Positions 21,878 through 38,680 of a stretch of 64,000 nt of DNA are shown in pieces. The stretch spans positions 236,948-300,947 of the forward strand of contig CAVSWE010000003.1 of assembly GCA_963731595.1 (NCBI GenBank). The letters are read 5' to 3'. The notes under the pieces were generated by a model. That model was not told where the DNA came from, made no database searches, and was given only the letters and a program-made list of their open reading frames with translations. Position 1 is the stretch's first letter, and each line of letters starts with the position of its first letter. Made by a program: the position numbers and the translations under genes. Source of the stretch: an uncultured delta proteobacterium (GTDB lineage: Bacteria; Myxococcota_A; Polyangia; Polyangiales; Polyangiaceae).

Positions 21878-21911
21878 GGTTCGAGAGCGGCCGTCCGCAA
21901 GGCGTGCGAAC

Positions 21912-22679
21912 CTAGATGCCCAGCTCCACGCGATAGGCCAGCGACGCAGGCAGGCCACAGGCGCGAATCTTGGCCGCAGCGGCCGCCGCATCGTACGGGA
22001 CGCGGAAAAAGGTAACCTCCTGTCGGTCAAGATCAAACAACGTGTAGGCGGCGGCTGGATTGCGGTCGCGCGGCTGACCCACGGAGCCCACGATCCCCAC
22101 CCAGCGGCGATGACTGCGCGCCGGGATCGCGGTCCCGGGGAAGGGACGGAATTCGCTCATTCGGCCCTGCGCGCTCTCGAAATACAGGACCTGGTCATGG
22201 ACGTGACCGCAGAAGGTGTAGCAGGCGTCTGTCGCGTCGGCGCAGCGCTTGGCGGCCGCGGGACTGTCGATGTAGTCCCAGCGCTCCGGCGCCGCCGCCG
22301 AGGCGTGGACGTAGCACACCGTCCCCTCCCGCGCGAAGAGCGGCAGCGCGGCGAGGAAGCGCTTCTGCTCCTCGGTAAGCGTATCACGTGCCCACTGCAG
22401 CGACGCCTGGGAGGCGTCGTTGAAGTAGCCCGAGCTCCTGTCGATGGCTTGGTCGTGGTTGCCTTTGAGAACGACCGCCCCCTGCGCAGCGTAGCGGCAG
22501 ACCGTCTCGACGACAGCGCGCGCATCGGCGCCGTAGCCCACGAAATCGCCAAGAAAGGCGAATCGCTCCGCACCTCGACTCCGAGCGTGGTGTAAACACG
22601 CGTTGAGAGCCTCCAGGTTGCCGTGAATGTCGGATAACAATGCGGTTAGCAACGGACACGCCCTAGTGGGTGACACCAC
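21912..22679 (-). CDS. Metallophosphoesterase, PPP-family Ser/Thr phosphatase-like
   Basis: LLSDIHGNLEAL, FLGDFVGYGADA, LKGNHDQ. Confidence 0.7.
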   Translation of the reverse strand: MVSPTRACPLLTALLSDIHGNLEALNACLHHARSRGAERFAFLGDFVGYGADARAVVETVCRYAAQGAVVLKGNHDQAIDRSSGYFNDASQASLQWARDTLTEEQKRFLAALPLFAREGTVCYVHASAAAPERWDYIDSPAAAKRCADATDACYTFCGHVHDQVLYFESAQGRMSEFRPFPGTAIPARSHRRWVGIVGSVGQPRDRNPAAAYTLFDLDRQEVTFFRVPYDAAAAAAKIRACGLPASLAYRVELGI

Positions 22680-22981
22680 GCAGTTTCAATGTTAGCAGGG
22701 ATGGGCCGCGGTTCCGTACGACTGGGTTGTCACCGGCTGACAGGAAAAGGCCGCGCGATCGGAAGGCGCTTACTGCAATGCGAGTCTGCGGGCTGCGGCG
22801 CGCTGTGAACACCGGCAAATCCGTAACCTTGAGGTAGCTCTGCTAGCCGATGGAAATGGCCTCGCGAGGGTCAAATTCGGAAGCAGATCGTGTCTCAGAA
22901 AGCGGGCGTCGAGGCGAGGCCAACTGATTATAGGCCGATCCATGAGGGCTGGGCGCGTGCGGCGTCAAGAAAGCACAGAAC

Positions 22982-23430
22982 TCAAAAGGGAGGCGGCTTA
23001 GCGCTTCTTTTGAAGGATTTTCGTCGAAATTCTTCAGCGGTGAACTCCTCCATTTCCGGGTCCATTGCGCCACGGGACGAAACGATTCCTATTGGTTTGC
23101 CATGTTGAACGACGGGCAGATAACGAAGGCCTTTTTCGTACATTACCAATAGTGCGTAGCCAAATGGCTCATCCGGACCAACAGTGTACGGCGCGCACGT
23201 CATCACGTCGGCAACCCGTGTGGCCCGCGCGTCAAGCCCTTGTGCAACCACGCGAAAACCACGTCGCGTTCGGTAAAAATTCCGACAAGACTGATCGCCT
23301 TCAACTACCATGATTGCGCCTGCCTCTCTTGGCTGCCATTAACCTGGCGGCCTCACTGACGAGGGTCTCCGGCGTAGCCTTGAGCGCTTCGCGCGGCCGC
23401 ATGACGTTTCGGACCGGCTCATCGAACATG
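22982..23430 (-). CDS. CBS-pair domain protein, 1 frame change
   Basis: CBS1 MFDEPVRNVMRPREALKATPETLVSEAARLMAAKR.. (frame A) joins ..VVEGDQ..RVVAQGLDARATRVADVMTCAPYTVGPDEPFGYALLVMYEKGLRYLPVVQHGKPIGIVSSRGAM (frame B). Confidence 0.6.
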
Positions 23431-23698
23431 AAACTCCTTTGAAGGAGTCCGGAGCCATGGACGCAACCCGCAAGTGTAAACTCTTGACCCTCGGTCCTTC
23501 TTCAACGAAACTACTCCAACCGCTATTTCGGAAAGTTGATTTGGATCAATTCCGAGTGGCGATCCACGACAGGACTGCACTACTCGCCACCGAGATACCT
23601 CGCTCGTTCGCACGCATCGGACACATTGAGCTGCGTTGCCATGGACGCTGTCCAAAGCAAGGGAGGATCTTCTTGCCGCGTTGATCTAATCCTTCAAA

Positions 23699-24250
23699 AT
23701 GCAATCCCTCCGCATTATTCAAGATGAACATCGCTCGCTGGCGGCTGTCCTCCACGGCATGCTTTACCTCGTTCACGAGATCCGTGACAGGGGAGCCAAG
23801 CCGGACTTCGGCCTTCTGGGAGCGATGATCTATTACATTGACACGGTTCCCGAGCGATTCCATCACCCCAAGGAGGAGCAGTACCTGTTCTGGCCTATTG
23901 CGCGAACGTCACCCCAGTACTGCGCCGCTCCTTGATCGGCTCAAACTCGAACACCAGACCAGCGCAGAGAAGATCCGAACCCTCGAACAAGCGATGGTGC
24001 ATTATCAGCAAGGCGGTGCGCCGGAATTCCCGGCCTTCCTGACGGCAGTGGAGTCCTATGCGACGTTCCATTGGTCGCATATGAAGACCGAGGAAAATGA
24101 GGTCTTGCCGCTTGCAGAAAAGCATCTCACCGCGAGTGATTGGGATGCGATCGATGCGGCCTTTCTCGGTCACACCGATCCTCTGTTAGGCATCGACGCG
24201 GGTGCGAAATACGATGCGCTGTTCAGCTCGCATCGTCAATTTGGCACCGC
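23699..24250 (+). CDS. Hemerythrin-like (HHE cation-binding) domain protein, 1 frame change
   Basis: IQDEHRSLAAVLHGMLYLV..VPERFHHPKEEQYLF | ..ERHPSTAPLLDRLKLEH..FHWSHMKTEENEVLPLAEKHLTASDWDAIDAAFLGHTDPL. Confidence 0.6.
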
Positions 24251-24486
24251 CACCCATCGGTGTGGGACCCGTGTGCTAAGCAGAATGGCGCTTACAGCGC
24301 CTGCTCCGCAAAGCCCCCTTCGCTCCCCTTTTTTGCAACGTGCATTTTGAGGGATATTCGACCCGAGTCACGCGTGCCGGTCGTAGGCAAGCCGGCATGA
24401 GCAGGCCCTGCGACATTTTGCCGCACGTAACCCGCGCTCGCGCTGCGGGGATAGCCTGTTGTTGGGTATAAACTGGGTTGTAGCAA

Positions 24487-25272
24487 TTGACCATGGAGTC
24501 GTGCATGTCGATATCTGCCATACGCCAAACGGCGTCGGCTCCGTCATCATCCAATACCATTGCGTTTTGCGAGCTCAAGACGCATTGCGCCTGCTGTAGC
24601 CTGCGCAGGTTGTGTTTGCCGGTCGGCCTTGAGGCGGACGCTGTACGGCAGCTGGATCAGCTTGCCTTCAAGCGGAACCGGGTAAAAAAGGGCGAAAGCC
24701 TGTACCGGCATGGCGATCCATTCGCCGCGCTGTATGCGATTCGACTAGGGACCTTCAAGACGATGGTGCTCACGGAGGATGGTCGCGAACAAATTACGGG
24801 TTACCATATGGCGGGCGAAATCGTGGGGCTCGATGGTATTAGCAATGACAGATATGCATGTCAGACAACCGCGCTCGAGGACGGTGAAGTGTGCGTTCTT
24901 CCCTTCGATCAGCTCGACGAACTGGCCAACAACCTAACTGCTTTACGACGCAATCTGTACCGCATCATCGCACACGATCTCTGCAGTGGCCAAGATATGA
25001 TGCTGTTGTTGGGCAGCATGCGAGCCGAAGAGCGGCTGGCGGTCTTCTTGCTCAACCTCGCCAAGCGTTATGAGGTGCTCGGCTACTCATCCTGCGAATT
25101 CGTACTGCGTATGACGCGTGAAGAGACTGCCAGTTATCTCGGGCTGAAACTGGAGACCGTCAGCCGCCTGTTCTCGCGCCTACAGCAAGAAGGATTGATC
25201 CAAGTGCAGGGCCGCGCGGTCAAGCTGATTGACTTGCCGGCGCTAAAGCGGTTGGTCGGTCACCACGGCTGA
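24487..25272 (+). CDS. fnr: FNR-type (Crp/Fnr family) O2-sensing transcription regulator with an N-terminal Cys cluster
   Basis: CELKTHCACCSLRRLC plus the internal Cys in EDGEVCVLPF align to E. coli FNR C20/C23/C29/C122; the cNMP-like fold and C-terminal HTH ETASYLGLKLETVSRLFSRL align along the full length to E. coli FNR. Confidence 0.8.
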   Translation: MTMESCMSISAIRQTASAPSSSNTIAFCELKTHCACCSLRRLCLPVGLEADAVRQLDQLAFKRNRVKKGESLYRHGDPFAALYAIRLGTFKTMVLTEDGREQITGYHMAGEIVGLDGISNDRYACQTTALEDGEVCVLPFDQLDELANNLTALRRNLYRIIAHDLCSGQDMMLLLGSMRAEERLAVFLLNLAKRYEVLGYSSCEFVLRMTREETASYLGLKLETVSRLFSRLQQEGLIQVQGRAVKLIDLPALKRLVGHHG

Positions 25273-25559
25273 CCTAGCGCGGCCACAACACTGGATAATC
25301 AGGATGGTTGCCTCTGGCGTTGATCGTTCAGTCGCGCAGAGGCCGTCGGGCGAGTTGGCTTCACGCCGCAAACTGGACCGCGGATAATGGCAGCGGCGAC
25401 TCGCCGACGGCCACCCGCGATGGCTTAAGCGGACCTGTTTGACCTGCGCAAATGGCTCGCTCAGCGCGCTGTCTCATGTTGGCGCGCCGGAAACGAGTGC
25501 CTTTCAGGTCAGCGTAGTATGCGGTTTACACTGCGGATGTTGCGCCGAAAGGGGGAACA

Positions 25560-26135
25560 GTGGCACAGGAACGCGGTAGACCCAGCCTATGGCGACGGCT
25601 TTCCACACCGAGCGCAAGATGGTCCGTCTTAGCGCTAGTGGTCGTAGGTTTGTTAATTGGTGCGGGCGCTGTGATCGGAACGCAGGTCATGGTAGCCGCA
25701 ACTGGCACCAACGAGTTTTGCGGCGGAGCCTGTCATTCGATGCAATGGGTCGCCCAGGAGTACAAGCAAAGTGTGCATTACGCCAACCGCACCGGCGTCC
25801 GGGCTGGCTGCCACGACTGCCACATCCCAGACCATTATCCCGACCTCCTTTGGTACAAGACCAAAGCCGGCGTGCACGACGCCATCGAAGAAATGCGCGG
25901 CGTTATTTCAAGCGAGGAAAAGTTCAAGAAAGAGCGTTTGCGCCTGGCCCAGGTGGTATGGGCGGAATTCAAAGATAACAATTCAGAGAATTGTCAGCAT
26001 TGCCACAAGTTTAGCCCGGAGGTCGTGGCCAAGCAGAAGGACTTCGTGCAACCGATGCATCAACAATTCCTGGCGAAGGCAGCGACCTGCATCGATTGCC
26101 ATAAGGGCGTTGCCCATACGGCACCCGACGAATGA
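25560..26135 (+). CDS. NapC/NirT/CymA-family membrane-anchored tetraheme quinol dehydrogenase
   Basis: N-terminal TM segment, then CGGACH, CHDCH, CQHCH, CIDCH. Confidence 0.8.
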   Translation: MAQERGRPSLWRRLSTPSARWSVLALVVVGLLIGAGAVIGTQVMVAATGTNEFCGGACHSMQWVAQEYKQSVHYANRTGVRAGCHDCHIPDHYPDLLWYKTKAGVHDAIEEMRGVISSEEKFKKERLRLAQVVWAEFKDNNSENCQHCHKFSPEVVAKQKDFVQPMHQQFLAKAATCIDCHKGVAHTAPDE

Positions 26136-26142
26136 GAAGGGT

Positions 26143-26703
26143 TCAGCCCTTGACCGGACGCTTGGCCAGCTTGCGCTGAAGCGTACGGCGATGCATCGAC
26201 AGCGCTCGCGCGGCCTGTGAAATGTTGCCCTTTTGCTCACGCAGCACGCGCCAGATGTGCTCCCACTCCAGGCGCCTGATCGACATCGGTTTCTCTTTCG
26301 GCGTCACCTCGACGTTGCCGACATCGTGGTAAAACGCCGCAATGATATCGTCTGCGTCCACCGGCTTGCAGAGGTAGTACGTTGCGCCTAGCTTGATTGC
26401 CTCTATCGCCGTCGCAATGTTCCCATAGCCGGTGAGGACCACAATCCGCGTATGGGGGTCGAGGCCGATCAAGGTTGATACCAGCTTAAGTCCGGGTTTA
26501 TCCGGAAGCCTCAAATCGACGACGGCGTACTCGGGTGGGTTCTCGGTCGCCAGCTTGGTTGCTGCAGCCGCTGTAACGGCGGTCGCGACCTCGAATCCGC
26601 GCTTCGCAATGGCTCGTCCCAGTGTTTCGCAAAGCGTCGCATCGTCGTCCACTAATAGGAGGCTGGGTTTGTCGTCGCCGTCGTAGGTGCTGCGGGCCGT
26701 CAT
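26143..26703 (-). CDS. regA: RegA/PrrA/ActR-type redox response regulator (receiver plus Fis-type HTH)
   Basis: LLLVDDD..AVVDLRLPDKPGL..VVLTGYGNIATAIEAIKLGATYYLCKP..ISQAARALSMHRRTLQRKL. Confidence 0.75.
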   Translation of the reverse strand: MTARSTYDGDDKPSLLLVDDDATLCETLGRAIAKRGFEVATAVTAAAATKLATENPPEYAVVDLRLPDKPGLKLVSTLIGLDPHTRIVVLTGYGNIATAIEAIKLGATYYLCKPVDADDIIAAFYHDVGNVEVTPKEKPMSIRRLEWEHIWRVLREQKGNISQAARALSMHRRTLQRKLAKRPVKG

Positions 26704-28163
26704 CGATGTCCCTCGAGGCTTAGCGAAGCCAATGGCAGCATGATTTTGACTTGCGTCCCGCCCGCGGGCCGGTTCTCCCAGCTCAGCGTTCCGCCGAGCC
26801 GTTCGATGGCACGCGAGGCGAGAACAACGCCAAGTCCCGTACCCGTGCCCGGTGGCTTGGTGGTAAAGAACGCCCGCCCTAGTTTGGGCTGATCAACGGC
26901 AGGCAGGCCACTGCCGCGGTCAGCAATGGAAAGTCGCAATGAATTCGCCTCCAGGCAAGCGGTGAATTGGACCTCTCGCGGCGAAGCGTCGGTAGCATTG
27001 TTTAGTAATGCCAACAACGCCTGCATCAGCGCCTGATCCGCAAAAACCTCCGTAGCTGGCAGTACGCCGTCCCAATCACAAACGATGTTCGCCTCTGGGT
27101 GCATTGTCCGGCATCGGACGGCGATTGACTCGAGAAATTGGTCCAGGCGCTCACGTCCGCCGCCTATCGCACGCGTATGACCGGCAGCCGCCATCAGATC
27201 CGTAATCGTTTCGCGGCAGATCTGGATCTGTGAAGTCAGTATGCCGGCGTCGCGCTGTAAAGACGGCGAGTCCGCGTTGCGCACGATCTCCCCGGCGACA
27301 ACCGCCATGGTAGTGAGCGGCGTTGCAAGCTCGTGCGCGGCACCGGCCGCAAGTGCGCCGACCCGAAGCACCGCTTCGTCGCGTAGCGCTCTCTGCGCCG
27401 CTTCGCTCAGCAGCCGATCATGACTGCGAAGTGTCGCGACAATGCGCACGACGAACCATGCGATGACAGCAGCGGTCAACGTGAAACTTAGCCACCACCC
27501 GAAAGTGAGGAGATACGCCGGAACGGCTTCGCCTGACCGCATCTCGAGCGGGACGCGGATGCGAGTGAGCGCCACATAGCACCCGACGACGAGCACGGTC
27601 CCGGTCGCCGCAGCCAGGGGCGGAAGAAGCAGGGACATCAGCACAACATGCAGAACGAACAGAAGGCTAAACGGGTTGGTTGCACCGCCCGAAAGGAACA
27701 GCAACAAAGTGAGCGCCGCAAGATCGAATCCTAGATAGGCCGCAATTTCGGCGTGGCTTGCTTCACGTGGCCTACGCAGACGCATCCAAGTCCAGACGTT
27801 TAGGACGATCAGAGCGCCGACGACAAGACCCATCACTGCCACAGGCAACGATACGCCCAGATACCAGGCGGTGGTGATCGCCGCCGCCTGCCCACCAAGG
27901 GCTATCGTACGCAGAATCATTAGCTGTCGTACGTTGGCCCGGAGCGGCGGCGGTGCTACCGCGATAGACAGGTTGGGGGGCCTCTCGGGTTGGGCTGGGC
28001 GAGCGTGGACGACTGAAGGCGCACCATTGATCGATATCGGACTGGCTGGCTCCGGTTCTTGTACGTTTACGGTGAGGTGAGCATTCATGAGATTTTGAAC
28101 ACCGGATCGTGGTCCGCCCGTGAAGGTCGAAGCGACGAGCAATCCGGTTTGCGCCCGCGACAA
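26700..28163 (-). CDS. regB: RegB/PrrB/ActS-type membrane sensor histidine kinase
   Basis: Multiple TM helices with the conserved GGATNPF heptapeptide; H-box AAGAAHELATPL; ATPase G-boxes; overlaps regA by 4 nt. Confidence 0.75.
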   Translation of the reverse strand: MSRAQTGLLVASTFTGGPRSGVQNLMNAHLTVNVQEPEPASPISINGAPSVVHARPAQPERPPNLSIAVAPPPLRANVRQLMILRTIALGGQAAAITTAWYLGVSLPVAVMGLVVGALIVLNVWTWMRLRRPREASHAEIAAYLGFDLAALTLLLFLSGGATNPFSLLFVLHVVLMSLLLPPLAAATGTVLVVGCYVALTRIRVPLEMRSGEAVPAYLLTFGWWLSFTLTAAVIAWFVVRIVATLRSHDRLLSEAAQRALRDEAVLRVGALAAGAAHELATPLTTMAVVAGEIVRNADSPSLQRDAGILTSQIQICRETITDLMAAAGHTRAIGGGRERLDQFLESIAVRCRTMHPEANIVCDWDGVLPATEVFADQALMQALLALLNNATDASPREVQFTACLEANSLRLSIADRGSGLPAVDQPKLGRAFFTTKPPGTGTGLGVVLASRAIERLGGTLSWENRPAGGTQVKIMLPLASLSLEGHR

Positions 28164-28479
28164 AATGTCGCAGTTAGAAACGGCGCACAGGGGATTTGCA
28201 GCGCGTGATATTAATCTTAATCAACCTCGAGCTATAAGACCTACTATACGCTAGACCTTGTGCAGGCCGTCCAGACGCCATCGAGGACCTGTTAAAGGAA
28301 TGCCGCCGCAACGGCAGGCGGCTGTTCATAGGTGAAGAGTTCGATGAGCCCCGCCAGGATAATCCGATCGGCGACTTGAGAGCCGCGGACGTACTGCTAC
28401 GACAAGATTGTTGCCTCGATTGGCAGGGAGAGGCGGGCTTGCACCGGCCTCTCCCCACACAAAGTGGCAACCCGATGCT

Positions 28480-28764
28480 TTATTGCGACAGCACCCACTT
28501 AACCAGGGTTTTCACATCATCGGGTGTGGCTTTGACTTGGGGATGTCCCTTGCCGCCGCTGATCTCGGCCACCAGCTTCGCCTCGGCATCGGCCTTGCCC
28601 TTGTACTTGGCGGCGACGTCCTTGAATGCCGGGCCGATTTTCTTGCTGTCTATCGCGTGGCAATTCAGACAGCCGCTGCTCTTGGCGAGTTCTTCCTGCG
28701 CGCTCGCCGCGCCTGCCGCGCCCAGCGCGATCGATACTACTACTGCGATCCCAATCAGTTTCAT
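28480..28764 (-). CDS. Monoheme class-I cytochrome c (c551/c552-like) with signal peptide
   Basis: MKLIGIAVVVSIALGAAGAASA | ..CLNCHAIDSKKIGPAFKDVAAKY.. Confidence 0.75.
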   Translation of the reverse strand: MKLIGIAVVVSIALGAAGAASAQEELAKSSGCLNCHAIDSKKIGPAFKDVAAKYKGKADAEAKLVAEISGGKGHPQVKATPDDVKTLVKWVLSQ

Positions 28765-28879
28765 ATAACCTCCTTCACCTCGACGGGAATTGGATGATAA
28801 CGTGTACTGCTGGCTCCTGCCGCAAGTTTCCGGCGGCAGGGGTTTATCCTAGCGGACGCATGACCCTGGGAAAATCATC

Positions 28880-29365
28880 ATGACCGATCAAGCCTTAGTA
28901 GAAGCTCTGCACGAGTCGTGTCTTGGCGCTGCGCTCTCAGCCGAACAGGCGCGCACGCTCGCGGACAGCCTCGCATTTCGCGATCTCCGGCCTGGCGAGA
29001 TCCTCGTCAGAGAAGGGACTTCCGACGACCATCTTTACGTCATCGTTAAAGGCGGCCTCGGCGTGATTAAGAATGCCGGAACTCCCGAGGCGCTTACGTT
29101 GTTTGCCCTGAGCGCCGGCGACCTCGTCGGGGAGCTGGGGTTCATCGACCAGACTTCCCATTATGCATCCCTCGCCGCGATCGGTCCGACGCTCGTGTTC
29201 GGACTCGAACGCGAGAAGCTCGAAGCGCTACTACCGCATCACCCCGAAATTGTCTATCGCGTCATGTGCGCGATCATTCGCGCCGTACATCATATTCAGC
29301 GCCGGTTGTCGATGCAATCGGTCGAGCTTACCAACTATATCTACAAGCAGCACGGAAAATACTAG
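28880..29365 (+). CDS. Stand-alone cyclic-nucleotide-binding (Crp-like effector) domain protein
   Basis: ..FRDLRPGEILVREGTSDDHLYVIVKGGLGVI..GDLVGELGFI.. Confidence 0.6.
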   Translation: MTDQALVEALHESCLGAALSAEQARTLADSLAFRDLRPGEILVREGTSDDHLYVIVKGGLGVIKNAGTPEALTLFALSAGDLVGELGFIDQTSHYASLAAIGPTLVFGLEREKLEALLPHHPEIVYRVMCAIIRAVHHIQRRLSMQSVELTNYIYKQHGKY

Positions 29366-29495
29366 CCGCTTCCGGACCTTGTTCTTACCAGCCCATCGCG
29401 CTTGGCGCGGGCCGCTTTACTTAGGCTGTGAGAAATCCACCTGATCTGCCACCGCATGCACTGAAGCCTTGTCGATGATTCGCCCACCAACCGGG

Positions 29496-31848
29496 CTAGA
29501 AATGGAATCTCACTCCGACCATGATCGTTCCGACATTGTAGTTTGGCGAGGCGTATCCGGGTGTCAGGATCGAGACGGCCTTGGTGCCGGCACCCTGGAT
29601 CGACGACGCGCGGTCGTAGAAGCTGTTGTCGCTGTAATAGCTCCAGGTGGCCTCGACCAGCAATTCCGTTTGCGGCATCAGCTTGTAGACTCCGGTCAGC
29701 CTGAGGCATGTCCATCGCGAATCGATGTCGGGATAGTTGCTCACGTTCTGATAGGACGCCGTCGGAACAGGTCACAAAGACGCCGTTGTACTGGCTGAAC
29801 AACACCGAACCGTAGGCGAAGGTGTATTCGCCGCGAGCATCAGCGTGTCGTTGACCTTCCAGTCGCCGCTCAATCCGATGGTATTGACGTCGCTGGTGTA
29901 CTCGTTCTGGAAGAACCCGGCGCTTCCCGTGCAGGCCGGCGGTAGCGGCCTGGGCGGCGGTCGAGCAGGCGCCGTTGCCGATATTGTTGAAGTAGATGCG
30001 CTCGAAGGTATAGAAGGAGTGGAGGCGCACATCGTCGCGCGGCCGGTAGTCGACACTCGGCGTGACAGTGATGTTGTAATCCTCTTGATGCCTCCGCCGA
30101 CGCCCGTAAGGGGGGGAACGTTGGTGCCGATGGTGGCCGCCGCGGGATAGGTGTAGTGTCGTCTTTCTACTGAAGGTACAGGCTGGCGACACGTTTTGCG
30201 TCGGCGAGTAGTCAGCCAAGAGCTTGATCGCGTTCGAAGTCATGGGAGCCTGGTAGTAGGCGCCGGAGTAGGTCAGGTCCGTAGCATTGGGGGTCCCCGC
30301 CAGATTCGCCCAGGGGGTCAGGTAGTTGAGCAGCCGCTGCGGTCGGAGTACTCGTAGGAGAGCCTGCCATAGACCGGCCCCGACCTGAGACATCAGCCTG
30401 ACCGCTACGGTGTTGGTGTTGCTGCTCCGACCTGGGCGTTGCTGCGACTGATGTGGTCGTACCGGTAGCCGACCGTCAGCTTGGTGTCGGTCTCGGGGTC
30501 GATTCTGTAGCCCACGTCGCCGCCCGCATTCTGCTTCGTCCAGCCTTGCGGCACGACGAAGTAGAAGGCGTTGAAGTTGGCGTCGCTTTCACCGCCGGTG
30601 CTGCCGGTGATAGACCTTGTACTGGTTGAGGCTGACGCGGCGGTCGGTCATAGCCGTAGTAGGCGTTGGCTCCCAATTGGGGACCGGATGCGAATACACG
30701 CTCGACTTTGAGCTGGATAGACCTTGGCTCGGGCGTCCGGGGAATTGGCGCTCGTTCCCTGCAGGGCGGGGTTGAGATTGCCAATCCAGGGGTGCCCGTG
30801 CGGATTGGGATCGGCGGTGTCCGGCGGGAACGGTGTCGTCCTGAAATTCCAGGCCGAGGCGCAGATTCAGATTGATGCGCGTGTTCGGCACATGGCGTTG
30901 GTCGCCGCCATGCAACGTCAGGTAATGGGCGGTGTTGCTGGGCGGCGTCGAATAAGCCGCCGACAGCTGATACGGAACCGCCGTATTCGAGAACGGGTAG
31001 GGAAGGTTGACGAAGCTGTTGCCGTCATGGAAATGCGAAAACGTGTACTGCAGCGACAGCCTGGTTCACGCGCGTGGCGTAGGCGAGCGATCAGCGTCGT
31101 AGCGGTCGGTAGTGTAGTCGATCGGCAGGGCAAACGCCGTCCCGCCCCAAGGCCCGATGAACGACTCCTCCAGCGAGCCTTCCTTGTACTCGTGGCGGAA
31201 GGCGCCGTTGAAGGTCCAGTCGCCGTAGAAGTACTTGAAAGTGCCGCCGAGGATGTCGCGACGGGTGCCCGTCTGCACGGGCTGCATGGCGCCGGTCGCA
31301 CTGAGCACCGGGATGGTCAAGAAGGCTTTGGTGAGCTGCCCGGCGCGCTGGCGGTCGCGCCGCCCCACGGCGTGAGGCCGCTATTTAGCGTCGCCTGCCC
31401 GCCGTTGACGTTATAGATCGAGTCGATAACGTTGCCGGTGTAGGTAATGGCGTCGTAGGCGAGCCCTGCCTCCCACGTAGCCCTGCCGGCCGAAGTTGAC
31501 GTCCACCGAGCCGTTGTTGACCAGATCGTTGGACGAGTTGGCCGGGTTGACTCAAAGTTGGCCAGGCCATGGCCGGTCTGGAAGACCAGATTGTCGCCGC
31601 CGGCGTTGAAGTACGCGCGTCGGCGGACTCCCAGAGGCGGTCTTGTAACAGGCAAATTGGCCGACGACGTCGACGCCGGTCGTATTGAGGCCGTCGTAGC
31701 GGCCGGCCAGGTTCGCGTTGGTACCGAAGACCCCCATCAGACCCGATCCGACCTCGGCCGCTGATCGGCGCGTCGCCGGCGAATGCGTCGAGCGACGCCA
31801 GGCAGGCAGTAGCCATTAGGGCGGCCTTGAGCTATTTCGATAGATCAT
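29496..31848 (-). CDS. MtrB/PioB/MtoB-family outer-membrane beta-barrel (decaheme-associated porin), many frame interruptions
   Basis: Signal-peptide-like start (MIYRNSSRP/ALMATACLASLDAFA); barrel-type segments GVFGTNANLAGRYDGLNTTGVDVVGQFA, GGTFKYFYGDWTFNGAFRHEYKEGSLEESFIGPWGGTAFALPIDYTTDRYD, YNITVTPSVDYRPRDDVRLHSFYTFERIYFNN; C-terminus ..YNVGTIMVGVRFHF ends in Phe; about 780 aa immediately downstream of the decaheme gene. Confidence 0.7.
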
Positions 31849-31878
31849 CTCAACCCCCATCTGCTTGTATCGTTCGCA

Positions 31879-32906
31879 TCAGCGGAAGAAGTAGGCTCCG
31901 CTCGGGCTGTTCGACCCGTGGACCTGCGAGTGGCAATTCAGGCATGTTCTCTGGTTCGCCAGCGCTGAGTTGAAGGAGGCTGCTCCCCGTCTGCGAGTGG
32001 AACGGAATCGAGCGCGTTCCCGCCGAAAGCTCCGCCGCTGTTGTTGGCCTGCGCGCTGTGGCAGGAAGAGCAGAGGAAGTTCTCCGGCTCAAGCAACAGG
32101 CGCGCCTGGTTCGACCCGTGCGGCGTGTGGCAGTTGGTGCAGTTCTCGCGCACCGGCTGATGTTCCCACAGCATCGGCCCACGCTTGTCGGCGTGGCAGT
32201 TGTAACAGGTCTCGTTGACGGTGAATTCCTTCAGCTGATTGGGCCCCGGCGAGCCGTGCGGGTTGTGGCAGTCGGAGCACACGACCTGCCCTTCGCGTAT
32301 CGGGTGGTGCGAGTACTCGAGCGACTCGGCCTGTTGCTGGGCGTGGCAGGTGAAGCACACTTTCGAACTGCGTCGCCTTCACCAGCACCGGATCCTTGGT
32401 CGCGTGCGCGGTATGGCAGTTGGTGCAGGCGATGTCGTTGCTCTGGTGCGGGCTGCCCTTCCAGTTCATGCGCAGGCCGGACTCGTGGCAGTCCAGGCAC
32501 ACCGCATTGCGCTCCTCGACCGGCGAGATGTCCGCCCAAGGCACATGCGGTTTGCTGAACAGAATCGGAGGCAGGATCAGGTTGCCGTCCGGTCCCGTTT
32601 TGCCGTTGGCGTGGTCCCCGGCCGGGCCGTGGCAGGATTCGCAACCGTGCTGGGCGAAGGGCGAGCGCGGATCGCCCTTGGCCGCCATCGGCGTCTGCAG
32701 GATGTAATCGACCGGGTGCGAGTTATGGCATCCGAGGCAGGTTTTCTCCCCCTCGGCGGAATACGGCTGATTCATACGCGCGCTTGACTCGCGCCGGCGT
32801 TGGCTTGATCGCCGCTGGGCTGGGCGTTGGCCGCAATCCCGGCCAGCATGCCACCCATCAGCAGAACCGCGCCGAAGGCAAACTTTAGGATTGCGCCCTG
32901 AGCCAT
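31879..32906 (-). CDS. Periplasmic decaheme c-type cytochrome, MtrA/DmsE/MtoA/PioA family (10 CxxCH), 3 frame interruptions
   Basis: Signal peptide MAQGAILKFAFGAVLLMGGMLAGIAANA; hemes CLGCH, CESCH, CLDCH, CTNCH (frame 0), CFTCH, CSDCH, CYNCH, CTNCH, CSSCH (frame 2), CLNCH then SQVHGSNSPSGAYFFR-stop (frame 1). Confidence 0.8.
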
Positions 32907-34113
32907 GATTCTCCCTCGCTTTTCCTGCGTCGCACCGGAAACTGCCGATGCAACCCGCGTCTTCCAACACCTTCCCAGCCGTGCAGAACGCTTTACCGTA
33001 TCTTATGCGGACGTCCCGCGATCGAGCTGCGACAGTTAGTCGCAGGCGCGGCGGCACTAGGGAAGGCTCGGTGACCGAGCGGTTTTCTTTGCCCGTATTG
33101 TGGCAGGGTGGCTGACATTCAGCCCCGAAGTACAGCACAAGCGGCTGCGTGCGATCGAACACCCGCTGGGCAAAAAACGCCTGGGTTCGGAGAAACTCCG
33201 GGCCAAACTGCGCCGCTTGCAACACCCTGCCTCCCTGCCGTGTTGCGACTGATGCTCGAGCCACATAATGCGCTGCGCTCGCGCGGCGCAATGGCCGAAT
33301 TGTTCGCCTTACTTTCTTACAGCTCGACGCCGGGAATACTGATCCAAGTCAAGGATCTTGCAGACGGCGGAAGCGTCTGTTGTAGAAATGACACAGTCCT
33401 TGGCGAGCGGAAGTGGGCCCAACCGCCAGGGCGATGGTCGGCGCGCGCGCCTTGGCGGCACGGACCCGAACCCTGCGTAGAGGGGGCGCAGGTCAGCCGC
33501 GACTCCGATGTAGTCGCAACCGCCGGCGTCTCCCTTGCTGTGCGACGGACCCTGCAGGGGCGGCCCTTCCGGCCTGCACGCAGGGTTAAGGAAGCGCCGC
33601 ACCTGCCCTCGCCTTGATGCTGAACGGCCGATCGCCCGATTTGTCTCGGCACGACGACCGCCCCGGGTGATCAGGTGGGCCGCTCAGACCTGCTGCCGCC
33701 ACTTCGATGACCGGCGGATAGAGGCCCGCGTTCCTACGGGGATTATTTTCCGATGCCCAGCGCGGGCAACTATAAGATCAGTGTTCGCATATCTCGGCCC
33801 GGGACTGCAAAGCCCATCGAGGCGCAGTTTCTGTACGCGCGCCCGTGACGATGCATTGCCCGCACGACGCGCCGTGGCACCCTTCGCCGGCTCACGACCG
33901 ACTTCCGGACAGCTGGGCGGAATGGAACCGCGGCGCGATCGGTCTTCAGAGGATTGCCGCAAGCCCATACGCGAATGCAACCCGAGGCTGGCCGGCGAGT
34001 GCGAGCGGGTTGAGCGCCCGCGGCCTGAGTTAGATCAAGTCGACCACGGGACTGGCAGCACTTGCAGCTCCGCGCGGAGCGCCAGCATCCCACCCGTGGC
34101 GCCTGAGGCGTGT

Positions 34114-34700
34114 TCAAACAGGGGCACGCAGCACCACCGTCAGGGTGCGGATTCCCTGGGCACCGTGGATTAATACGCCCTCGATATCCGCGGTCGCCGA
34201 CGGCCCGGTCATGAATACACCGTAGCGGGCATCGAACTGCGCGCGTTCGCGATAGGCATGGTGAAGGTTGCCCACGATGCGGCCGGGGTCAAGCAGGACG
34301 ACCAGGTGCTGCGCAAGAAAGCCGAGGCTATTTACCCTGAACTCCTTTTCGGTCAGCCACACCGAACCGGTCTCGGCGATCCCGTACACTGCGCGCACGA
34401 CCCCCACGTCGACCGCGTTCAGCTCCCCTGGGCTTTTTACGCGGTCGAGGGGCAGGTTGCCCCGGACCTCCGGCGTCGCCGAGCACACGATCAGGGCATC
34501 CGGAAAGAGCTGCCGGATGAGTGCATCGAGATCGCCGTCACTGGGTGCTGTGGCGAGCTTGCCGCCCATCCGGACGAGCGCGGCCTTGAACCCCTCGAGC
34601 GCCGAGCCCGTTGGAGCGCCGAAGGCCGGTACCGGGGGCAGTGGCTGGGGGGGTGGCTGGTTTTTCCGGATTCGTCCCAGAATATCGTCGCGGCTGCTCA
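34114..34700 (-). CDS. lutC: Lactate utilisation protein C (LUD domain)
   Basis: SSRDDILGRIRKNQ..; last gene of the lutABC unit, LUD-domain protein. Confidence 0.65.
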
Positions 34701-36074
34701 CTGCTTGCTCCGATTCTTCAGGTACCACTGGCGAAAAGTGAGCTGGGGTGCCGCGGGGACTTCGCGCTGGCGGCCCCAAGCATTTAGCCGGTTGTACATC
34801 ATGAACCGCGGCAGATGTTCGATTCCGGCGCCGGCGGTTTCAACCGCGGCGCGATAGACCTTTGGGTTTGCAAGGACCTTGCCAGCAACCTGCATCGCCT
34901 CCTGCTTTACGAACGGCAGTTGGCCACGCTCGGCGATTACCTGCCGCCACTTGTAGATCTGCTCGTGGATGTTGATCTTGACCGGGCAGACACTGGTACA
35001 ACTGCCGTTGAGTGTCGAGGCGAACGGCAGCGAACTGTATTTGCGCAGATTGAAAGTGGGATCGATGATTACGCCGATCGGCCCGGAATAGGTTGCGCCG
35101 TAGGAGAGGCCGCCGCTGCGCCGGTAGACCGGACAAGTGTTCATGCAGGCGCCGCAGCGGATGCACTTGAGCGAATACCAGAAATCCGGCATGCCTAGCC
35201 GCTCCGAGCGCCCGTTGTCGACCAAGACGATGTGCATTTCAGTGCCGTCGCGCGGCGCGCGGAAATGCGATGTGAGTTGCGTGATCGGTGAGCCGAGGGC
35301 GCTCCGCGACAGCATCCGCACGAATACGCCAAGATGCTCGATTTTGGGAATGATCTTCTCGACACCGATTGAAGCGATATAGAGCGGCGGCAGGTTCACG
35401 CTCAGGTCGGCGTTGCCCTCGTTGGTGCAGACGACTACTGTGCCGGTTTCGGCGACGGCGAAATTGGCGCCGGTCATGCCAGCGTCGGCCTTGAGGAAGT
35501 ACGGCCGCGTGTGCTGGCGCTGGCTTTCCGCGAGGTAGTGCACGTCGCTGTTCTTGGGGTCGGTGCCGATCGTCTCCGCAAAAACTCGGGCCACATCGGT
35601 TCTGAGCTTGTGCACGGCCGGGACAACGATGTGGCTGGGGGGTTCGTTGTCGAGCTGCTGGATGCGCTCGCCGAGGTCGGTTTCCATGACCTCGATGCCC
35701 CGATTTTCGAGAAAGGGCCGCATCTCGCATTCGTCGGTAAGCATCGACTTGGCTTTGACCAAGGTTTTCGCGCCATGTGCGCTCATGATGTCAAAGACGA
35801 TCTGGTTGTGCTCGGCAGCGTCCTTGGCCCAATGGACGCGGGCGCCGTTTGCAATCGCCTTGCGCTCGAACTCCTCCAGGTAGTCTGCGAGATGCGTCAG
35901 CGTATGCTCCTTGATCGCAGATGCGAGCGCGCGCAGCTCCTCCCACTCGGGGAGAAGCTCGCTCTCCCGGTCGCGCTTCTGTCGCAGGTCCCAGAGCCTC
36001 TGGTCGTGAAAGTCGAGATGGTCCTTCGCCCTGATGAACTTCGACGAGGCTTCTGCGTGGTCGATACGTTTCAT
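34698..36074 (-). CDS. lutB: Lactate utilisation protein B (4Fe-4S plus LUD domain)
   Basis: MKRIDHAEASSKFIRAKDH..; CIRCGACMNTCPVY, CTSVCPVKINI; LUD/DUF162. Confidence 0.8.
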   Translation of the reverse strand: MKRIDHAEASSKFIRAKDHLDFHDQRLWDLRQKRDRESELLPEWEELRALASAIKEHTLTHLADYLEEFERKAIANGARVHWAKDAAEHNQIVFDIMSAHGAKTLVKAKSMLTDECEMRPFLENRGIEVMETDLGERIQQLDNEPPSHIVVPAVHKLRTDVARVFAETIGTDPKNSDVHYLAESQRQHTRPYFLKADAGMTGANFAVAETGTVVVCTNEGNADLSVNLPPLYIASIGVEKIIPKIEHLGVFVRMLSRSALGSPITQLTSHFRAPRDGTEMHIVLVDNGRSERLGMPDFWYSLKCIRCGACMNTCPVYRRSGGLSYGATYSGPIGVIIDPTFNLRKYSSLPFASTLNGSCTSVCPVKINIHEQIYKWRQVIAERGQLPFVKQEAMQVAGKVLANPKVYRAAVETAGAGIEHLPRFMMYNRLNAWGRQREVPAAPQLTFRQWYLKNRSKQ

Positions 36075-38671: not shown

Positions 38672-38680
38672 GTCGTCTCC

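What the first reader, a model, noticed from the sequence alone, without database searches (positions are those of the whole stretch)
25560..32906. Porin-decaheme cytochrome conduit (MtrAB/MtoAB/PioAB type) with CymA-like and monoheme cytochrome partners next to FNR and RegBA
Two consecutive minus-strand genes give a periplasmic decaheme cytochrome (all ten CxxCH recovered across three frames, C-terminal ..CLNCHSQVHGSNSPSGAYFFR) and, 30 nt downstream, a ~780-aa beta-barrel ending ..VGVRFHF. This is the architecture of outer-membrane electron conduits used for Fe(II) oxidation or extracellular electron transfer (Shewanella MtrAB, Sideroxydans MtoAB, Rhodopseudomonas PioAB). Within 4 kb lie a monoheme cytochrome c (possible MtoD/periplasmic shuttle analogue), a NapC/NirT/CymA-type tetraheme quinol dehydrogenase, the quinone-sensing RegB/RegA system and an FNR with a full Cys cluster. 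In a genome that otherwise looks like a lactate- and 2-oxoglutarate-using heterotroph (Kor/Lut/Dld), an anoxia-regulated conduit of this kind would be a notable, possibly undescribed trait. Two points stand out: the conduit genes are separated from cymA and the monoheme cytochrome by regBA and a cNMP-binding gene, and 1.1 kb of apparently non-coding DNA lies upstream.
Basis: partly seen in the sequence, partly recalled or inferred. Interest (0 to 1): 0.8.

Follow-up and report, generated by a model that had tools for sequence, protein, structure and literature searches.

The report
Broken copy of a known electron conduit
The window holds a recognisable two-gene outer-membrane electron conduit of the well-known MtoAB/PioAB type, but this copy is shredded by about 30 one-base insertions and deletions that most likely come from a faulty metagenome consensus, because sister contigs of the same species carry both genes intact.

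Summary
On the minus strand, 31879-32906 encodes a decahaem MtrA/MtoA-type cytochrome. It has ten CxxCH motifs and scores 290 bits on TIGR03508 (cutoff 192). Thirty nt downstream, 29496-31848 encodes an MtrB/PioB-type barrel (Pfam PF11854, 220 bits). An MtoD-like monohaem cytochrome, a NapC/NirT tetrahaem protein, RegBA-like genes and an FNR lie within 7 kb.

Neither conduit gene is an open reading frame here. mtrA has 4 frame changes and mtrB has 18-31. Read from their start codons they stop after 44 and 10 codons.

A conspecific contig (L079) is about 99% identical in the flanks and carries both genes intact (339 and 783 aa). The damage is confined to 29,500-32,930. There the window looks like a blend of two known alleles (L079 and L081). 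It has 29 private frameshifting indels but only 18 private substitutions, so I read it as a chimeric long-read consensus rather than real decay (about 0.7).

The intact orthologue models as an MtrB-like barrel (best PDB hit 6r2q_B). The family is already annotated in hundreds of soil, peat and lake MAGs, so this is a new member of a known kind. FNR or RegBA control is not shown. Interest is low.

The parts
31879..32906 (-). mtrA/mtoA-like periplasmic decahaem cytochrome c gene. It has a signal-peptide-like N-terminus and ten CxxCH motifs. It is broken into 5 frame segments (4 frame changes), and the ORF from the ATG stops after 44 codons.
   Evidence: The conspecific intact gene is L079 12999-14018 (339 aa, TIGR03508 278 bits).
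29496..31848 (-). mtrB/mtoB/pioB-like outer-membrane barrel gene, 30 nt downstream of mtrA. It has 18-31 frame changes and one in-frame stop after frame correction. The ORF from the ATG stops after 10 codons.
   Evidence: The conspecific intact gene is L079 10617-12968 (783 aa). The model of P0001 (99.7% identical to it) is a large barrel whose best PDB hit is 6r2q_B.
29500..32930 (.). Tract in which the window departs from its otherwise ~99% identical conspecific contig L079. It shows 5-20% substitutions and about 40 small indels, with sharp edges. The tract coincides with the extent of homology to mtrAB of non-syntenic genomes (L081: window 29489-32965).
28880..29365 (+). Stand-alone cNMP-binding-domain protein (161 aa, no DNA-binding domain), convergent with mtrB. 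It is conserved next to mtrAB in L046, L048 and L079.
28480..28764 (-). MtoD-like class-I monohaem cytochrome c (94 aa). It has a signal peptide and CLNCH motif. Its mature part has no Met, and the only other His (His74, nt 28543-28545) lies in the distal loop, so bis-His ligation is predicted.
   Evidence: It is conserved with mtrAB in L046 (76%) and L048 (95%).
26700..28163 (-). RegB/PrrB/ActS-like redox sensor kinase. It carries the GGATNPF quinone-site motif at nt 27669-27689. The probable true start is near 27920, as called in L079.
   Evidence: NF033792 scores 211 bits, below its cutoff of 350.
26143..26703 (-). RegA/PrrA/ActR-like response regulator.
   Evidence: NF033791 scores 198 bits, below its cutoff of 250.
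25560..26135 (+). Membrane-anchored NapC/NirT-family tetrahaem cytochrome, a candidate CymA-like quinol dehydrogenase. Its first haem site is CGGACH (CX3CH, nt 25719-25736).
24505..25272 (+). FNR with the C28-x2-C31-x5-C37 plus C119 cysteine pattern.
33135..33848 (+). Relic of a class-I multi-domain cytochrome c gene inside the 1.1-kb 'non-coding' region upstream of mtrA. The C-terminal 41 codons (33723-33845) are 68% identical to the L046 5652-6725(-) cytochrome. A degraded haem-site region lies at 33135-33302.
   Evidence: The region is also present in L079 (98.4% nt) and L048 (81%).
28211..28224 (+). FNR/CRP-type box TTAATCTTAATCAA (1 mismatch) upstream of regB.

Best explanation
What it is (shown): a two-component porin-cytochrome conduit of the MtrAB/MtoAB/PioAB family.
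- A Sec-exported decahaem cytochrome (MtrA/MtoA-like) would be threaded through a ~780-aa, roughly 26-strand MtrB-like barrel, forming a haem wire across the outer membrane.
- No MtrC-type surface cytochrome is encoded nearby, so the architecture is Mto/Pio-like, not Shewanella Mtr-like.
- Two genes travel with it as a small cassette in at least two genera: an MtoD-like, predicted bis-His, monohaem periplasmic cytochrome and a stand-alone cNMP-binding protein.

How it most likely works (inferred):
- Electrons pass between extracellular soluble or complexed Fe or humic substances and MtrA, then to the MtoD-like shuttle.
- From there they reach the inner membrane through a terminal oxidase, bc1, or the NapC/CymA-like quinol dehydrogenase 3.4 kb away.
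- By architecture I lean towards inward flow, that is oxidation of Fe(II) or reduced humics as in Sideroxydans Mto (about 55:35 over outward flow). Sequence alone cannot fix the direction.

Why it is broken here (inferred, about 0.7-0.75): the roughly 30 frame-shifting one-base indels, and the odd sequence of the tract 29,500-32,930, are a metagenome assembly or polishing artefact.
- The consensus in exactly the stretch that is homologous between different mtrAB-carrying populations was built from reads of several divergent alleles. These include one like the conspecific L079 allele and one like the L081 allele.
- The result is a centroid-like blend peppered with indels.
- The real organism most likely carries intact genes, as its conspecifics do.
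For: Identity of the module:
- Ten CxxCH motifs.
- TIGR03508 at 290 bits against a cutoff of 192.
- Match to solved MtrA, 6r2q_A, at E 3e-71.
- Pfam MtrB_PioB at 220 bits for the frame-corrected window protein and 248 bits for P0001.
- The AlphaFold model of P0001 (pLDDT 70, all-beta) has 6r2q_B (MtrB) as best PDB hit: E 4e-31, TM 0.66/0.79, far ahead of TonB-dependent receptors at about 1e-10.
- mtrA is followed by mtrB in 50 or more of 78 related loci.
- No other multihaem ORF occurs in the 64 kb.

MtoD-like partner:
- Match to 4xxl at E 6e-17, with no Met in the mature protein and a single distal His.
- MtoD is bis-His coordinated (PMC4412085).
- The gene is kept beside mtrAB in the non-syntenic locus L046.

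Artefact reading:
- L079 is ~99-100% identical to window 20452-39373 outside the tract and carries intact mtrA, mtrB and lctP.
- The L079 allele is seen again in a separately assembled contig of a public sequencing run (L080, 100% identical) and on a 1.35-Mb MAG contig (P0001, 99.7%).
- Within the tract, 86% of the sites where the window differs from L079 match L081, and 84% of the sites where it differs from L081 match L079.
- Outgroup-polarised private substitutions: in the 5' part, window 11 against L081 45; in the 3' part, window 7 against L079 63 (binomial p = 5e-6 and 2e-12).
- The window has 29 private frameshifting indels (18 insertions, 11 deletions, all 1-2 nt) against 18 private substitutions.
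- Only 5 of the 40 gaps between window and L079 in the tract lie in homopolymer runs of 3 or more.
- dN/dS of the window against intact alleles (0.25-0.48) is no higher than between intact alleles (0.16-0.43).
- Private mtrA substitutions are mostly third-position (23 of 33).
- All ten haem sites are intact.
- The tract limits equal the limits of homology to L081 and L046.
- The window also has scattered non-homopolymer frameshifts in flanking genes (CBS, hemerythrin, lctP) that are intact in L079, so its baseline indel error is not zero.
- The relatives L046 and L048 are MAGs labelled MFD. The Microflora Danica long-read study, from which I assume they come, built Nanopore-only Flye assemblies with one Medaka round from soils with high microdiversity (PMC12313526).
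Against: - No reads or coverage data are available, so the artefact is inferred, not shown.
- The window's own contig and sample were not identified, so I do not know that it is a long-read metagenome assembly.
- A simple two-haplotype mixture does not fit. In the 5' part the window carries the L079-derived state at about 10% of L079-derived sites, but the L081-derived state at only 45% of L081-derived sites. More than two alleles, or an ancestral-like one, must be invoked.
- Other tracts that diverge from L079 (regB ~6%, 34,500-34,750 ~10%) carry no indels.
- One nonsense substitution remains in mtrB after frame correction.
- The recombination-like limits of the tract would also be expected from real homologous replacement.
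- TIGR03509 stays below its curated cutoff (176-187 against 240).
- Direction of electron flow, partners and regulation are untested.
Confidence: 0.7

Rival explanations
1. Genuine strain-specific pseudogenes. The window's strain really carries a dead mtrAB pair, decaying after loss of function, while its conspecifics keep the conduit.
For: - The frame breaks are confined to the two genes while ten flanking genes are clean.
- One in-frame stop remains after frame correction.
- The lineage has already lost a neighbouring cytochrome gene, whose relic lies at 33135-33848 and is shared with L079 and L048. Erosion of this cluster therefore has precedent.
- Related loci also show breaks in mtrB: 12 private indels in L048 and one frameshift in L081.
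Against: - The mutation spectrum is wrong for natural decay. There are more private indels (29) than private substitutions (18). Insertions outnumber deletions, all are 1-2 nt, and most lie outside homopolymers.
- The window's private branch is 4-9 times shorter than its sister's, where a neutrally evolving gene should have a longer one.
- dN/dS and codon-position patterns look like those of a selected gene.
- All ten haem motifs are kept.
- A 12% divergence from a strain whose flanks differ by under 1% cannot arise from relaxed selection alone.
Confidence: 0.13
2. A real recombinant allele, with technical frame breaks. The strain truly carries a mosaic mtrAB acquired by homologous recombination, L081-like in mtrA and the 5' part of mtrB and L079-like in the 3' part of mtrB. 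Only the indels are sequencing errors, for example from a local coverage drop.
For: - The tract has two large-scale domains. It is L081-like (0.92-0.98 identity) down to about 31,000 and L079-like (0.86-0.97) from about 30,800 onwards.
- Other indel-free divergent tracts in regB and lutC/lutB show that this population recombines with diverged relatives.
- The tract edges fall where homology to foreign mtrAB ends, as expected for homologous replacement.
Against: - A real donor lineage should have accumulated as many private changes as its sister. It shows 11 against 45 and 7 against 63.
- There is an excess of conflicting shared-derived sites: window+L079 14 against L079+L081 1 in the 5' part.
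- This reading gives no independent reason for an 18-fold local rise in indel errors.
Confidence: 0.14
3. Outward rather than inward function. The conduit exports respiratory electrons from lactate oxidation, through the NapC/CymA-like quinol dehydrogenase and the monohaem shuttle, to soluble Fe(III) or humic acceptors under oxygen limitation. This would resemble Shewanella Mtr without MtrC. This rival concerns direction only and is independent of the artefact question.
For: - Lactate-utilisation genes (lutABC, lctP, a D-lactate dehydrogenase-like gene), FNR and RegBA sit around the locus.
- The nearest relatives come from peat, bog and humic-lake heterotrophs.
- Such homologues have been proposed to serve humic or Fe redox cycling in heterotrophs (PMC6344600).
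Against: - All characterised MtrC-less systems (MtoAB, PioAB) work in Fe(II) oxidation (PMC5566968, PMC3274759, PMC12016527).
- The shuttle is MtoD-like.
- No FNR box lies upstream of mtrA.
Confidence: 0.35

Closest known systems
MtoAB-MtoD-CymA(ES-1) of Sideroxydans lithotrophicus ES-1 and mtoABCD of Gallionella ES-2 / Dechloromonas RCB
   Same: - A decahaem periplasmic cytochrome gene is followed directly by an MtrB/PioB-family barrel gene, with no extracellular MtrC.
- A small class-I monohaem cytochrome with predicted bis-His ligation lies beside them, matching solved MtoD (4xxl) at E 6e-17.
- A NapC/NirT-family membrane cytochrome is in the neighbourhood (PMC5566968, PMC4412085).
   Different: - MtrA is only 45-51% identical to the Gallionellaceae proteins.
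- The shuttle gene is separated from mtrB by a convergent cNMP-binding gene.
- The NapC-like gene lies 3.4 kb away beyond regBA and is about 37% identical to the Gallionella cluster genes.
- The host looks like a lactate-using heterotroph, not a lithoautotroph.
- No function has been tested.
PioAB(C) of Rhodopseudomonas palustris TIE-1
   Same: It is a two-component decahaem plus barrel conduit without a surface cytochrome, and the barrel belongs to the same Pfam family, PF11854.
   Different: - The cytochrome is 339 aa and lacks the long N-terminal extension of PioA (from my own knowledge of PioA, not tested here).
- The partner is a class-I cytochrome c, not a HiPIP like PioC.
- No phototrophy genes were seen in the window.
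MtrCAB of Shewanella (solved complex 6R2Q)
   Same: MtrA aligns over 294 residues with all haem sites (E 3e-71). The modelled barrel superposes on MtrB (TM 0.66/0.79).
   Different: No MtrC/OmcA-type extracellular decahaem gene occurs anywhere in the 64 kb. The barrel is about 130 residues longer and 17% identical.
Unstudied MtrAB/MtoAB/PioAB homologues in MAGs of peat, soil and humic-lake Proteobacteria (Acetobacteraceae, Telmatospirillum, Roseiarcus, Rhizomicrobium, Polynucleobacter and others)
   Same: This is the same clade. MtrA is 57-76% identical and MtrB 40-60% identical to alphaproteobacterial peat and soil MAG proteins, and 84-91% identical to uncultured betaproteobacterial MAG contigs. 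Many are already labelled DmsE family or MtrB/PioB family (PMC6344600).
   Different: The cassette with the cNMP-binding gene and the MtoD-like gene was found only in the betaproteobacterial relatives L046, L048 and L079.

Membership tests
MtrA/MtoA/PioA/DmsE decahaem cytochromes (TIGR03508) | Ten CxxCH haem-binding motifs | tested here: met
   Ten motifs on the minus strand between 31944 and 32739, spread over the reading frames.
MtrA/MtoA/PioA/DmsE decahaem cytochromes (TIGR03508) | Full-length HMM score above the curated cutoff | tested here: met
   289.7 bits against 192.2 for the stitched window protein, and 278-285 bits for the intact L079 and L081 proteins.
MtrA/MtoA/PioA/DmsE decahaem cytochromes (TIGR03508) | Sec signal peptide (periplasmic location) | tested here: inconclusive
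   By inspection only. MAQGAILKFAFGAVLLMGGMLAGIAANA has a hydrophobic core and an A-x-A site. No signal-peptide predictor was available.
MtrA/MtoA/PioA/DmsE decahaem cytochromes (TIGR03508) | Uninterrupted coding sequence in this window | tested here: not met
   There are 4 frame changes, and the ORF from the ATG at 32906 ends after 44 codons. The gene is intact in conspecific L079.
MtrB/PioB outer-membrane barrels (PF11854 / TIGR03509) | Pfam MtrB_PioB match above the gathering score | tested here: met
   220 bits for the frame-corrected window protein and 248 bits for P0001, against a cutoff of 23.
MtrB/PioB outer-membrane barrels (PF11854 / TIGR03509) | NCBIfam TIGR03509 score above the curated cutoff (240) | tested here: not met
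   187 bits (window, corrected), 176 bits (P0001) and 168 bits (L046). The alignment is full-length with E about 1e-50, but below the cutoff.
MtrB/PioB outer-membrane barrels (PF11854 / TIGR03509) | Large beta-barrel fold resembling solved MtrB | tested here: met
   Tested on the conspecific orthologue P0001, not on the broken window copy. The model is all-beta, and its best PDB hit is 6r2q_B (E 4.3e-31, TM 0.66/0.79).
MtrB/PioB outer-membrane barrels (PF11854 / TIGR03509) | Gene immediately adjacent to a periplasmic decahaem gene | tested here: met
   A 30-nt gap separates it from mtrA. The same order holds in related loci.
MtrB/PioB outer-membrane barrels (PF11854 / TIGR03509) | Uninterrupted coding sequence in this window | tested here: not met
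   There are 18-31 frame changes and one in-frame stop.
Shewanella-type MtrCAB | MtrC/OmcA-type extracellular decahaem lipoprotein encoded with mtrAB | tested here: not met
   The only CxxCH-bearing ORFs in the 64 kb are mtrA, the NapC-like gene, the monohaem cytochrome and two single-motif ORFs.
Mto pathway (MtoAB + MtoD + CymA/MtoC) | MtoD-type class-I monohaem cytochrome with bis-His ligation next to mtoAB | tested here: met
   It matches 4xxl (MtoD) at E 5.6e-17. The mature protein has no Met, and His36 (in CLNCH) and His74 are its only His residues. It is syntenic with mtrAB in L046, L048 and L079. The ligation is predicted, not measured.
Mto pathway (MtoAB + MtoD + CymA/MtoC) | Inner-membrane NapC/NirT-type quinone-active cytochrome in the same cluster | tested here: inconclusive
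   A NapC/NirT tetrahaem gene (PF03264, 185 bits) lies 3.4 kb away, separated by regBA, the monohaem gene and the cNMP gene. NapC-type genes lie within 10 kb of mtrA in 25 of 78 related loci, but they are only 30-41% identical to this one.
Mto pathway (MtoAB + MtoD + CymA/MtoC) | Fe(II)- or mineral-oxidising activity | not testable with these tools
   This needs culture or heterologous expression.
PioABC | PioC-type HiPIP partner and an N-terminally extended PioA | tested here: not met
   The cytochrome is 339 aa with no extension. Family scans of the genes between 24.5 and 29.4 kb gave no HiPIP hit. The PioA and PioC features are from my own knowledge.
FNR | HMM above cutoff and the N-terminal Cys-x2-Cys-x5-Cys plus central Cys pattern | tested here: met
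   NF008365 scores 242.7 bits against 228. The cysteines are C28, C31, C37 and C119.
RegB/RegA (PrrBA/ActSR) | HMMs above the curated cutoffs; GGXXNPF quinone-site motif in the kinase | tested here: inconclusive
   These are the best family hits, but both fall below cutoff (211 against 350 and 198 against 250). The GGATNPF motif is present at residues 159-165.

The most novel reading that the evidence does not exclude
The tract is real. In that case mtrAB in this soil betaproteobacterial species is a recombination hotspot where alleles 12% or more apart are swapped between otherwise ~99% identical genomes. One strain would then carry a freshly assembled mosaic that has been inactivated by an unusual, indel-dominated mutational process. 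That would make an extracellular-electron-transfer conduit a rapidly exchanged and readily discarded accessory trait.

A milder, more likely novelty is the conserved cassette itself: mtrA, mtrB, a stand-alone cNMP-binding protein and an MtoD-like bis-His cytochrome. It may define a cyclic-nucleotide-linked Mto variant in heterotrophic soil Betaproteobacteria.
Probability: 0.13. Interest if true: 0.5.

Novelty: new member of a known kind. Interest (0 to 1): 0.25.

Why it matters
Biologically it adds little. It is one more uncultured soil betaproteobacterium carrying an MtoAB/PioAB-type conduit, which fits the view that such conduits are widespread in heterotrophs of humic, iron-rich soils and waters.

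Two details may interest specialists:
- The conduit travels with an MtoD-like, predicted bis-His shuttle and a stand-alone cNMP-binding protein in at least two genera.
- This lineage has lost a neighbouring multihaem class-I cytochrome gene that relatives keep.

The practical lesson is methodological. A horizontally shared, conserved module inside an otherwise clean metagenome contig can be turned into an apparent pseudogene by a mixed-allele consensus. Pseudogene calls and trait-loss inferences from such assemblies need read-level checks.

Tried and rejected
1. A codon-usage Viterbi model to map frameshifts across the whole window. It split known intact ORFs and merged the broken mtrB into one frame, so I discarded it.
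2. Identifying the window's own contig by exact-protein look-ups. The NapC-like protein, RegA, a 343-aa read-through ORF, FNR and P0001 were not on record. The source sample and sequencing platform therefore remain unknown.
3. Rfam and tRNA scans of the window found nothing, so the upstream 1.1 kb is not a known RNA.
4. Promoter and terminator scans of 28.3-34.2 kb were at chance level.
5. A search for an FNR box upstream of mtrA found none with up to 1 mismatch. I read only a 2-mismatch TTGAC-N4-ATCAG at about 33337-33350 by eye.
6. 'Window allele = L079 allele plus random mutations' is rejected. The window is closer to L048, L046 and L081 than L079 is.
7. 'A single database allele explains all differences from L079' is rejected at the protein level for MtrB. 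The best single protein matched 69 of 135 differing sites. L081 was then found through MtrA and explains 86% of the differing nucleotide sites.
8. A pure two-haplotype 50:50 mixture is rejected, because the window is biased towards ancestral states.
9. Fine-scale alternation between L079-like and L081-like sites (257 runs) is not diagnostic. Any three-taxon comparison produces it. I replaced it with the outgroup-polarised relative-rate test.
10. A DmsEFAB-type or nitrite-reductase-type reading of the decahaem gene is rejected. No reductase genes are adjacent, and the NrfB/NrfH models score far below their cutoffs.

Full report
**1. What is in the sequence**

Six-frame translation of the minus strand of 29.3-33.4 kb shows ten CxxCH motifs between 31944 and 32739. 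Four lie in one frame, five in a second, and the last back in the first.
- Stitched together, they give a protein ending in CLNCHSQVHGSNSPSGAYFFR. It scores 289.7 bits on NCBIfam TIGR03508, the DmsE-family decahaem model, against a cutoff of 192.2.
- It aligns over 294 residues with chain A (MtrA) of the solved Shewanella Mtr complex 6R2Q at E 3e-71.
- The ATG at 32906 opens MAQGAILKFAFGAVLLMGGMLAGIAANA, which reads as a Sec signal peptide.
- Thirty nucleotides after the stop, an ATG at 31848 opens the second gene. It ends in VGVRFHF with its stop at 29496-29498.
- Frame-corrected, this second protein scores 220 bits on Pfam PF11854 (MtrB_PioB). It scores 187 bits on TIGR03509, a full-length alignment at E 5e-55 but below the curated cutoff of 240.
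  - FNR (24505-25272) scores above its cutoff and has the C-x2-C-x5-C plus central Cys pattern.
  - A NapC/NirT tetrahaem protein sits at 25560-26135.
  - RegA- and RegB-like genes sit at 26143-28163. They are best hits but below cutoff, with a GGATNPF motif present.
  - A 94-aa monohaem cytochrome sits at 28480-28764.
  - A 161-aa cNMP-binding protein sits at 28880-29365.

**2. Neither conduit gene is an ORF here**

- Ungapped tblastn with an intact orthologue splits mtrA into 5 frame segments and mtrB into about 19.
- Nucleotide alignment to the conspecific gene gives 4 frame changes in mtrA and up to 31 in mtrB.
- Read from their start codons, the genes end after 44 and 10 codons.
- One in-frame stop remains in mtrB even after frame correction.

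**3. Relatives, and the key comparison**

A scan of species-representative genomes with the stitched MtrA returned 78 loci.
- The nearest were two uncultured betaproteobacterial MAGs labelled MFD: L046 (genes intact) and L048.
- L048 is syntenic with the window over about 20 kb at 87-93% identity.

An exact-protein look-up with the cNMP-binding protein then found L079, a 75-kb contig.
- It is about 99-100% identical to window 20452-39373 outside the conduit.
- There it has 0-5 mismatches per 250 nt, apart from two short divergent tracts.
- It carries an intact mtrA (339 aa), mtrB (783 aa) and lactate permease.
- Its allele recurs 100% identical on L080, a separately assembled contig of a public sequencing run.
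- It also recurs at 99.7% on a 1.35-Mb MAG contig (P0001).

Between 29,500 and 32,930, and only there, the window differs from L079 by 5-20% substitutions and about 40 small indels.
- The bins on either side of the tract have one mismatch each.
- Private frameshifting indels of the window number 31 in mtrAB, against 6 in about 12 kb of other genes.

**4. Is the damage biological?**

Several independent features say no.
- (a) Spectrum.
  - In a five-way alignment the window has 29 private frameshifting indels: 18 insertions and 11 deletions, all 1-2 nt.
  - Only 5 of the 40 gaps between window and L079 in the tract lie in homopolymer runs of 3 or more.
  - Real bacterial indels concentrate in runs and favour deletions; this is my background knowledge.
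- (b) Branch length.
  - A search with the corrected MtrA found P0122 (91% identical) on L081, a non-syntenic contig.
  - The window is L081-like (0.92-0.98 identity) from the mtrA start to about 31,000. It is L079-like (0.86-0.97) from about 30,800 to the mtrB stop.
  - 86% of the sites where it differs from L079 match L081, and 84% of the sites where it differs from L081 match L079.
  - I polarised substitutions with L046 and L048 as outgroups. In the 5' part the window has 11 private substitutions against 45 for L081. In the 3' part it has 7 against 63 for L079. The binomial p values are 5e-6 and 2e-12.
  - A decaying gene should have the longer branch, not one 4-9 times shorter.
  - There are more private indels (29) than private substitutions (18).
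- (c) Selection signature.
  - dN/dS of the window against intact alleles is 0.25-0.48. Between intact alleles it is 0.16-0.43.
  - 23 of 33 private mtrA substitutions are at third codon positions.
  - All ten haem sites survive.
- (d) Limits.
  - The tract coincides with the only stretch shared with non-syntenic mtrAB-carrying genomes. L081 matches window 29489-32965, and L046 matches 29497-32957.
- (e) Baseline errors.
  - The window has isolated non-homopolymer frameshifts in the CBS, hemerythrin and lctP genes, all intact in L079.
  - L048 has frameshift-type indels scattered through lutC, lutB and other genes.

The Microflora Danica long-read study, the presumed source of the MFD-labelled MAGs, used Nanopore-only Flye assemblies with one Medaka round. 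Its samples were soils with high microdiversity (PMC12313526).

The most economical reading is that reads from several mtrAB alleles were piled onto this contig during consensus or polishing. Reads from other taxa can align only over the shared module. The outcome is a centroid-like blend with many spurious indels.

Caveats:
- A simple two-allele mixture does not fit, because the window is biased towards ancestral states.
- Other divergent tracts carry no indels.
- I have neither the reads nor the identity of the window's source.
- I put the artefact at about 0.7-0.75, a real recombinant allele with technical indels at about 0.14, and genuine pseudogenes at about 0.13.

**5. What the module is and how it should work**

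- The AlphaFold model of P0001 has mean pLDDT 70 and is all-beta, with about 26 long strands and disordered loops. Its best PDB match is MtrB (6r2q_B, E 4e-31, TM 0.66/0.79). TonB-dependent receptors follow twenty orders of magnitude behind.
- No other multihaem ORF exists in the 64 kb. The system is therefore the MtrC-less Mto/Pio type.
- The monohaem cytochrome matches Pseudomonas c551 and solved MtoD (4xxl) about equally, at E about 1e-17.
  - Its mature part has no methionine.
  - Its only His besides the CLNCH histidine (His74) sits where c551 has the Met ligand. Bis-His ligation as in MtoD is therefore predicted (PMC4412085).
- This gene and the cNMP-binding gene accompany mtrAB in L046, whose surroundings are otherwise unrelated. 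That argues for a four-gene cassette.
- L046 additionally has a 495-aa NapC-like multihaem protein with 6 CxxCH and 1 CxxxCH motifs. It also has an 11-haem membrane-anchored cytochrome close by. This recalls mtoABCD (PMC5566968).
- NapC-type genes lie within 10 kb of mtrA in 25 of 78 loci. In Gallionella-type loci they sit directly after mtoB. They are only 30-41% identical to the window's NapC-like protein.
- The inferred path runs from an extracellular Fe or humic substrate to MtrA in the barrel, then to the MtoD-like shuttle. From there it reaches an oxidase, bc1 or the NapC-like quinol dehydrogenase.
- By architecture I lean towards inward flow (Mto-like). Direction cannot be read from sequence.

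**6. Regulation**

- FNR-type boxes with up to 1 mismatch occur four times in the window, against about 1 expected by chance.
- The two relevant ones lie at 23536, upstream of the hemerythrin gene, and at 28211, upstream of regB. None lies upstream of mtrA.

**7. The upstream 1.1 kb**

- No gene is called there in L079 either.
- It contains a relic on the plus strand. Positions 33723-33845 encode the last 41 residues, followed by a stop, of a class-I multi-domain cytochrome c. They are 68% identical to the L046 5652-6725(-) protein and 53% identical to its L081 homologue.
- A degraded haem-site stretch lies at 33135-33302.
- The relic is shared with L079 (98.4% nt) and L048 (81%). It is therefore a real, older gene loss in this lineage.

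**8. Comparison with what is known, and novelty**

- The family is well known (MtrAB, MtoAB, PioAB).
- Protein searches returned hundreds of full-length homologues from JGI, ENA, NCBI and other public run assemblies. Many are already annotated as 'MtrB/PioB family decaheme-associated outer membrane protein' or 'DmsE family decaheme c-type cytochrome'.
- Their nearest non-betaproteobacterial relatives are peat and soil Alphaproteobacteria such as Acetobacteraceae, Telmatospirillum, Roseiarcus and Rhizomicrobium.
- Homologues in heterotrophs of humic waters have been reported (PMC6344600).
- This is a new member of a known kind. The apparent pseudogenisation is most likely not a real feature.
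- Interest is 0.25.

Noticed in passing
window 25719-25736: The first haem-binding site of the NapC/NirT-like protein is CGGACH (CX3CH) rather than CxxCH. It is identical in L079 and L048. Two other related loci (L044, L015) also have CX3CH at this site, while most have CxxCH.
   Followed up: partly
window 33135-33848 (+): The 'non-coding' DNA upstream of mtrA holds a decayed relic of a class-I multi-domain cytochrome c gene. Relatives (L046, L081) keep this gene intact near mtrAB. The relic is shared with L079 and L048, so it is real.
   Followed up: yes
window 22782, 22883, 23254, 23892, 24227, 36824, 37546: Isolated single-base indels relative to the conspecific contig L079, mostly outside homopolymers. 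Those at 22782 and 22883 lie upstream of the CBS-domain ORF; 23254 is inside it. Those at 23892 and 24227 are in the hemerythrin gene, and 37546 is in the lactate permease gene. All three genes are intact in L079. The indel at 36824 sits near the lutA start.
   Followed up: partly
window 26750-28000 and 34500-34750: Two further tracts diverge from L079 (about 6% in regB, about 10% at the lutC/lutB junction) but contain no indels. They look like ordinary recombination imports.
   Followed up: no
window 23536-23549: A perfect FNR/CRP box, TTGATTTGGATCAA, lies about 150 nt upstream of the hemerythrin-domain gene, next to fnr.
   Followed up: no
window 12400-17000: A lower-GC stretch (0.57-0.59) with few long ORFs. 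It includes a helix-turn-helix fragment that reads like an IS3-family transposase OrfA (13099-13449) and a methyltransferase-like ORF (14763-15518). It may be an accessory island or another degraded region. These readings are by eye, with no family scan.
   Followed up: no
L046 14999-16486 (-) and 17428-18795 (-): In L046 the mtrAB cassette is followed by a 495-aa membrane-anchored NapC-like cytochrome with 6 CxxCH and 1 CxxxCH motifs. An 11-haem cytochrome with a C-terminal helix comes after it. This is a larger Mto-like cluster than in the window.
   Followed up: partly
L048 (whole locus) and L081 11023-13406: L048 has frameshift-type indels scattered through several genes (for example 5 in lutC). 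L081 has its mtrB split in two by one frameshift. Apparent breaks in these public long-read contigs are common and should not be read as gene loss without the reads.
   Followed up: partly
window 28880-29365 (+): A stand-alone cNMP-binding protein with no output domain is wedged between the MtoD-like gene and mtrB. It is conserved there in two genera (80% identical in L046). Its role is unknown.
   Followed up: partly
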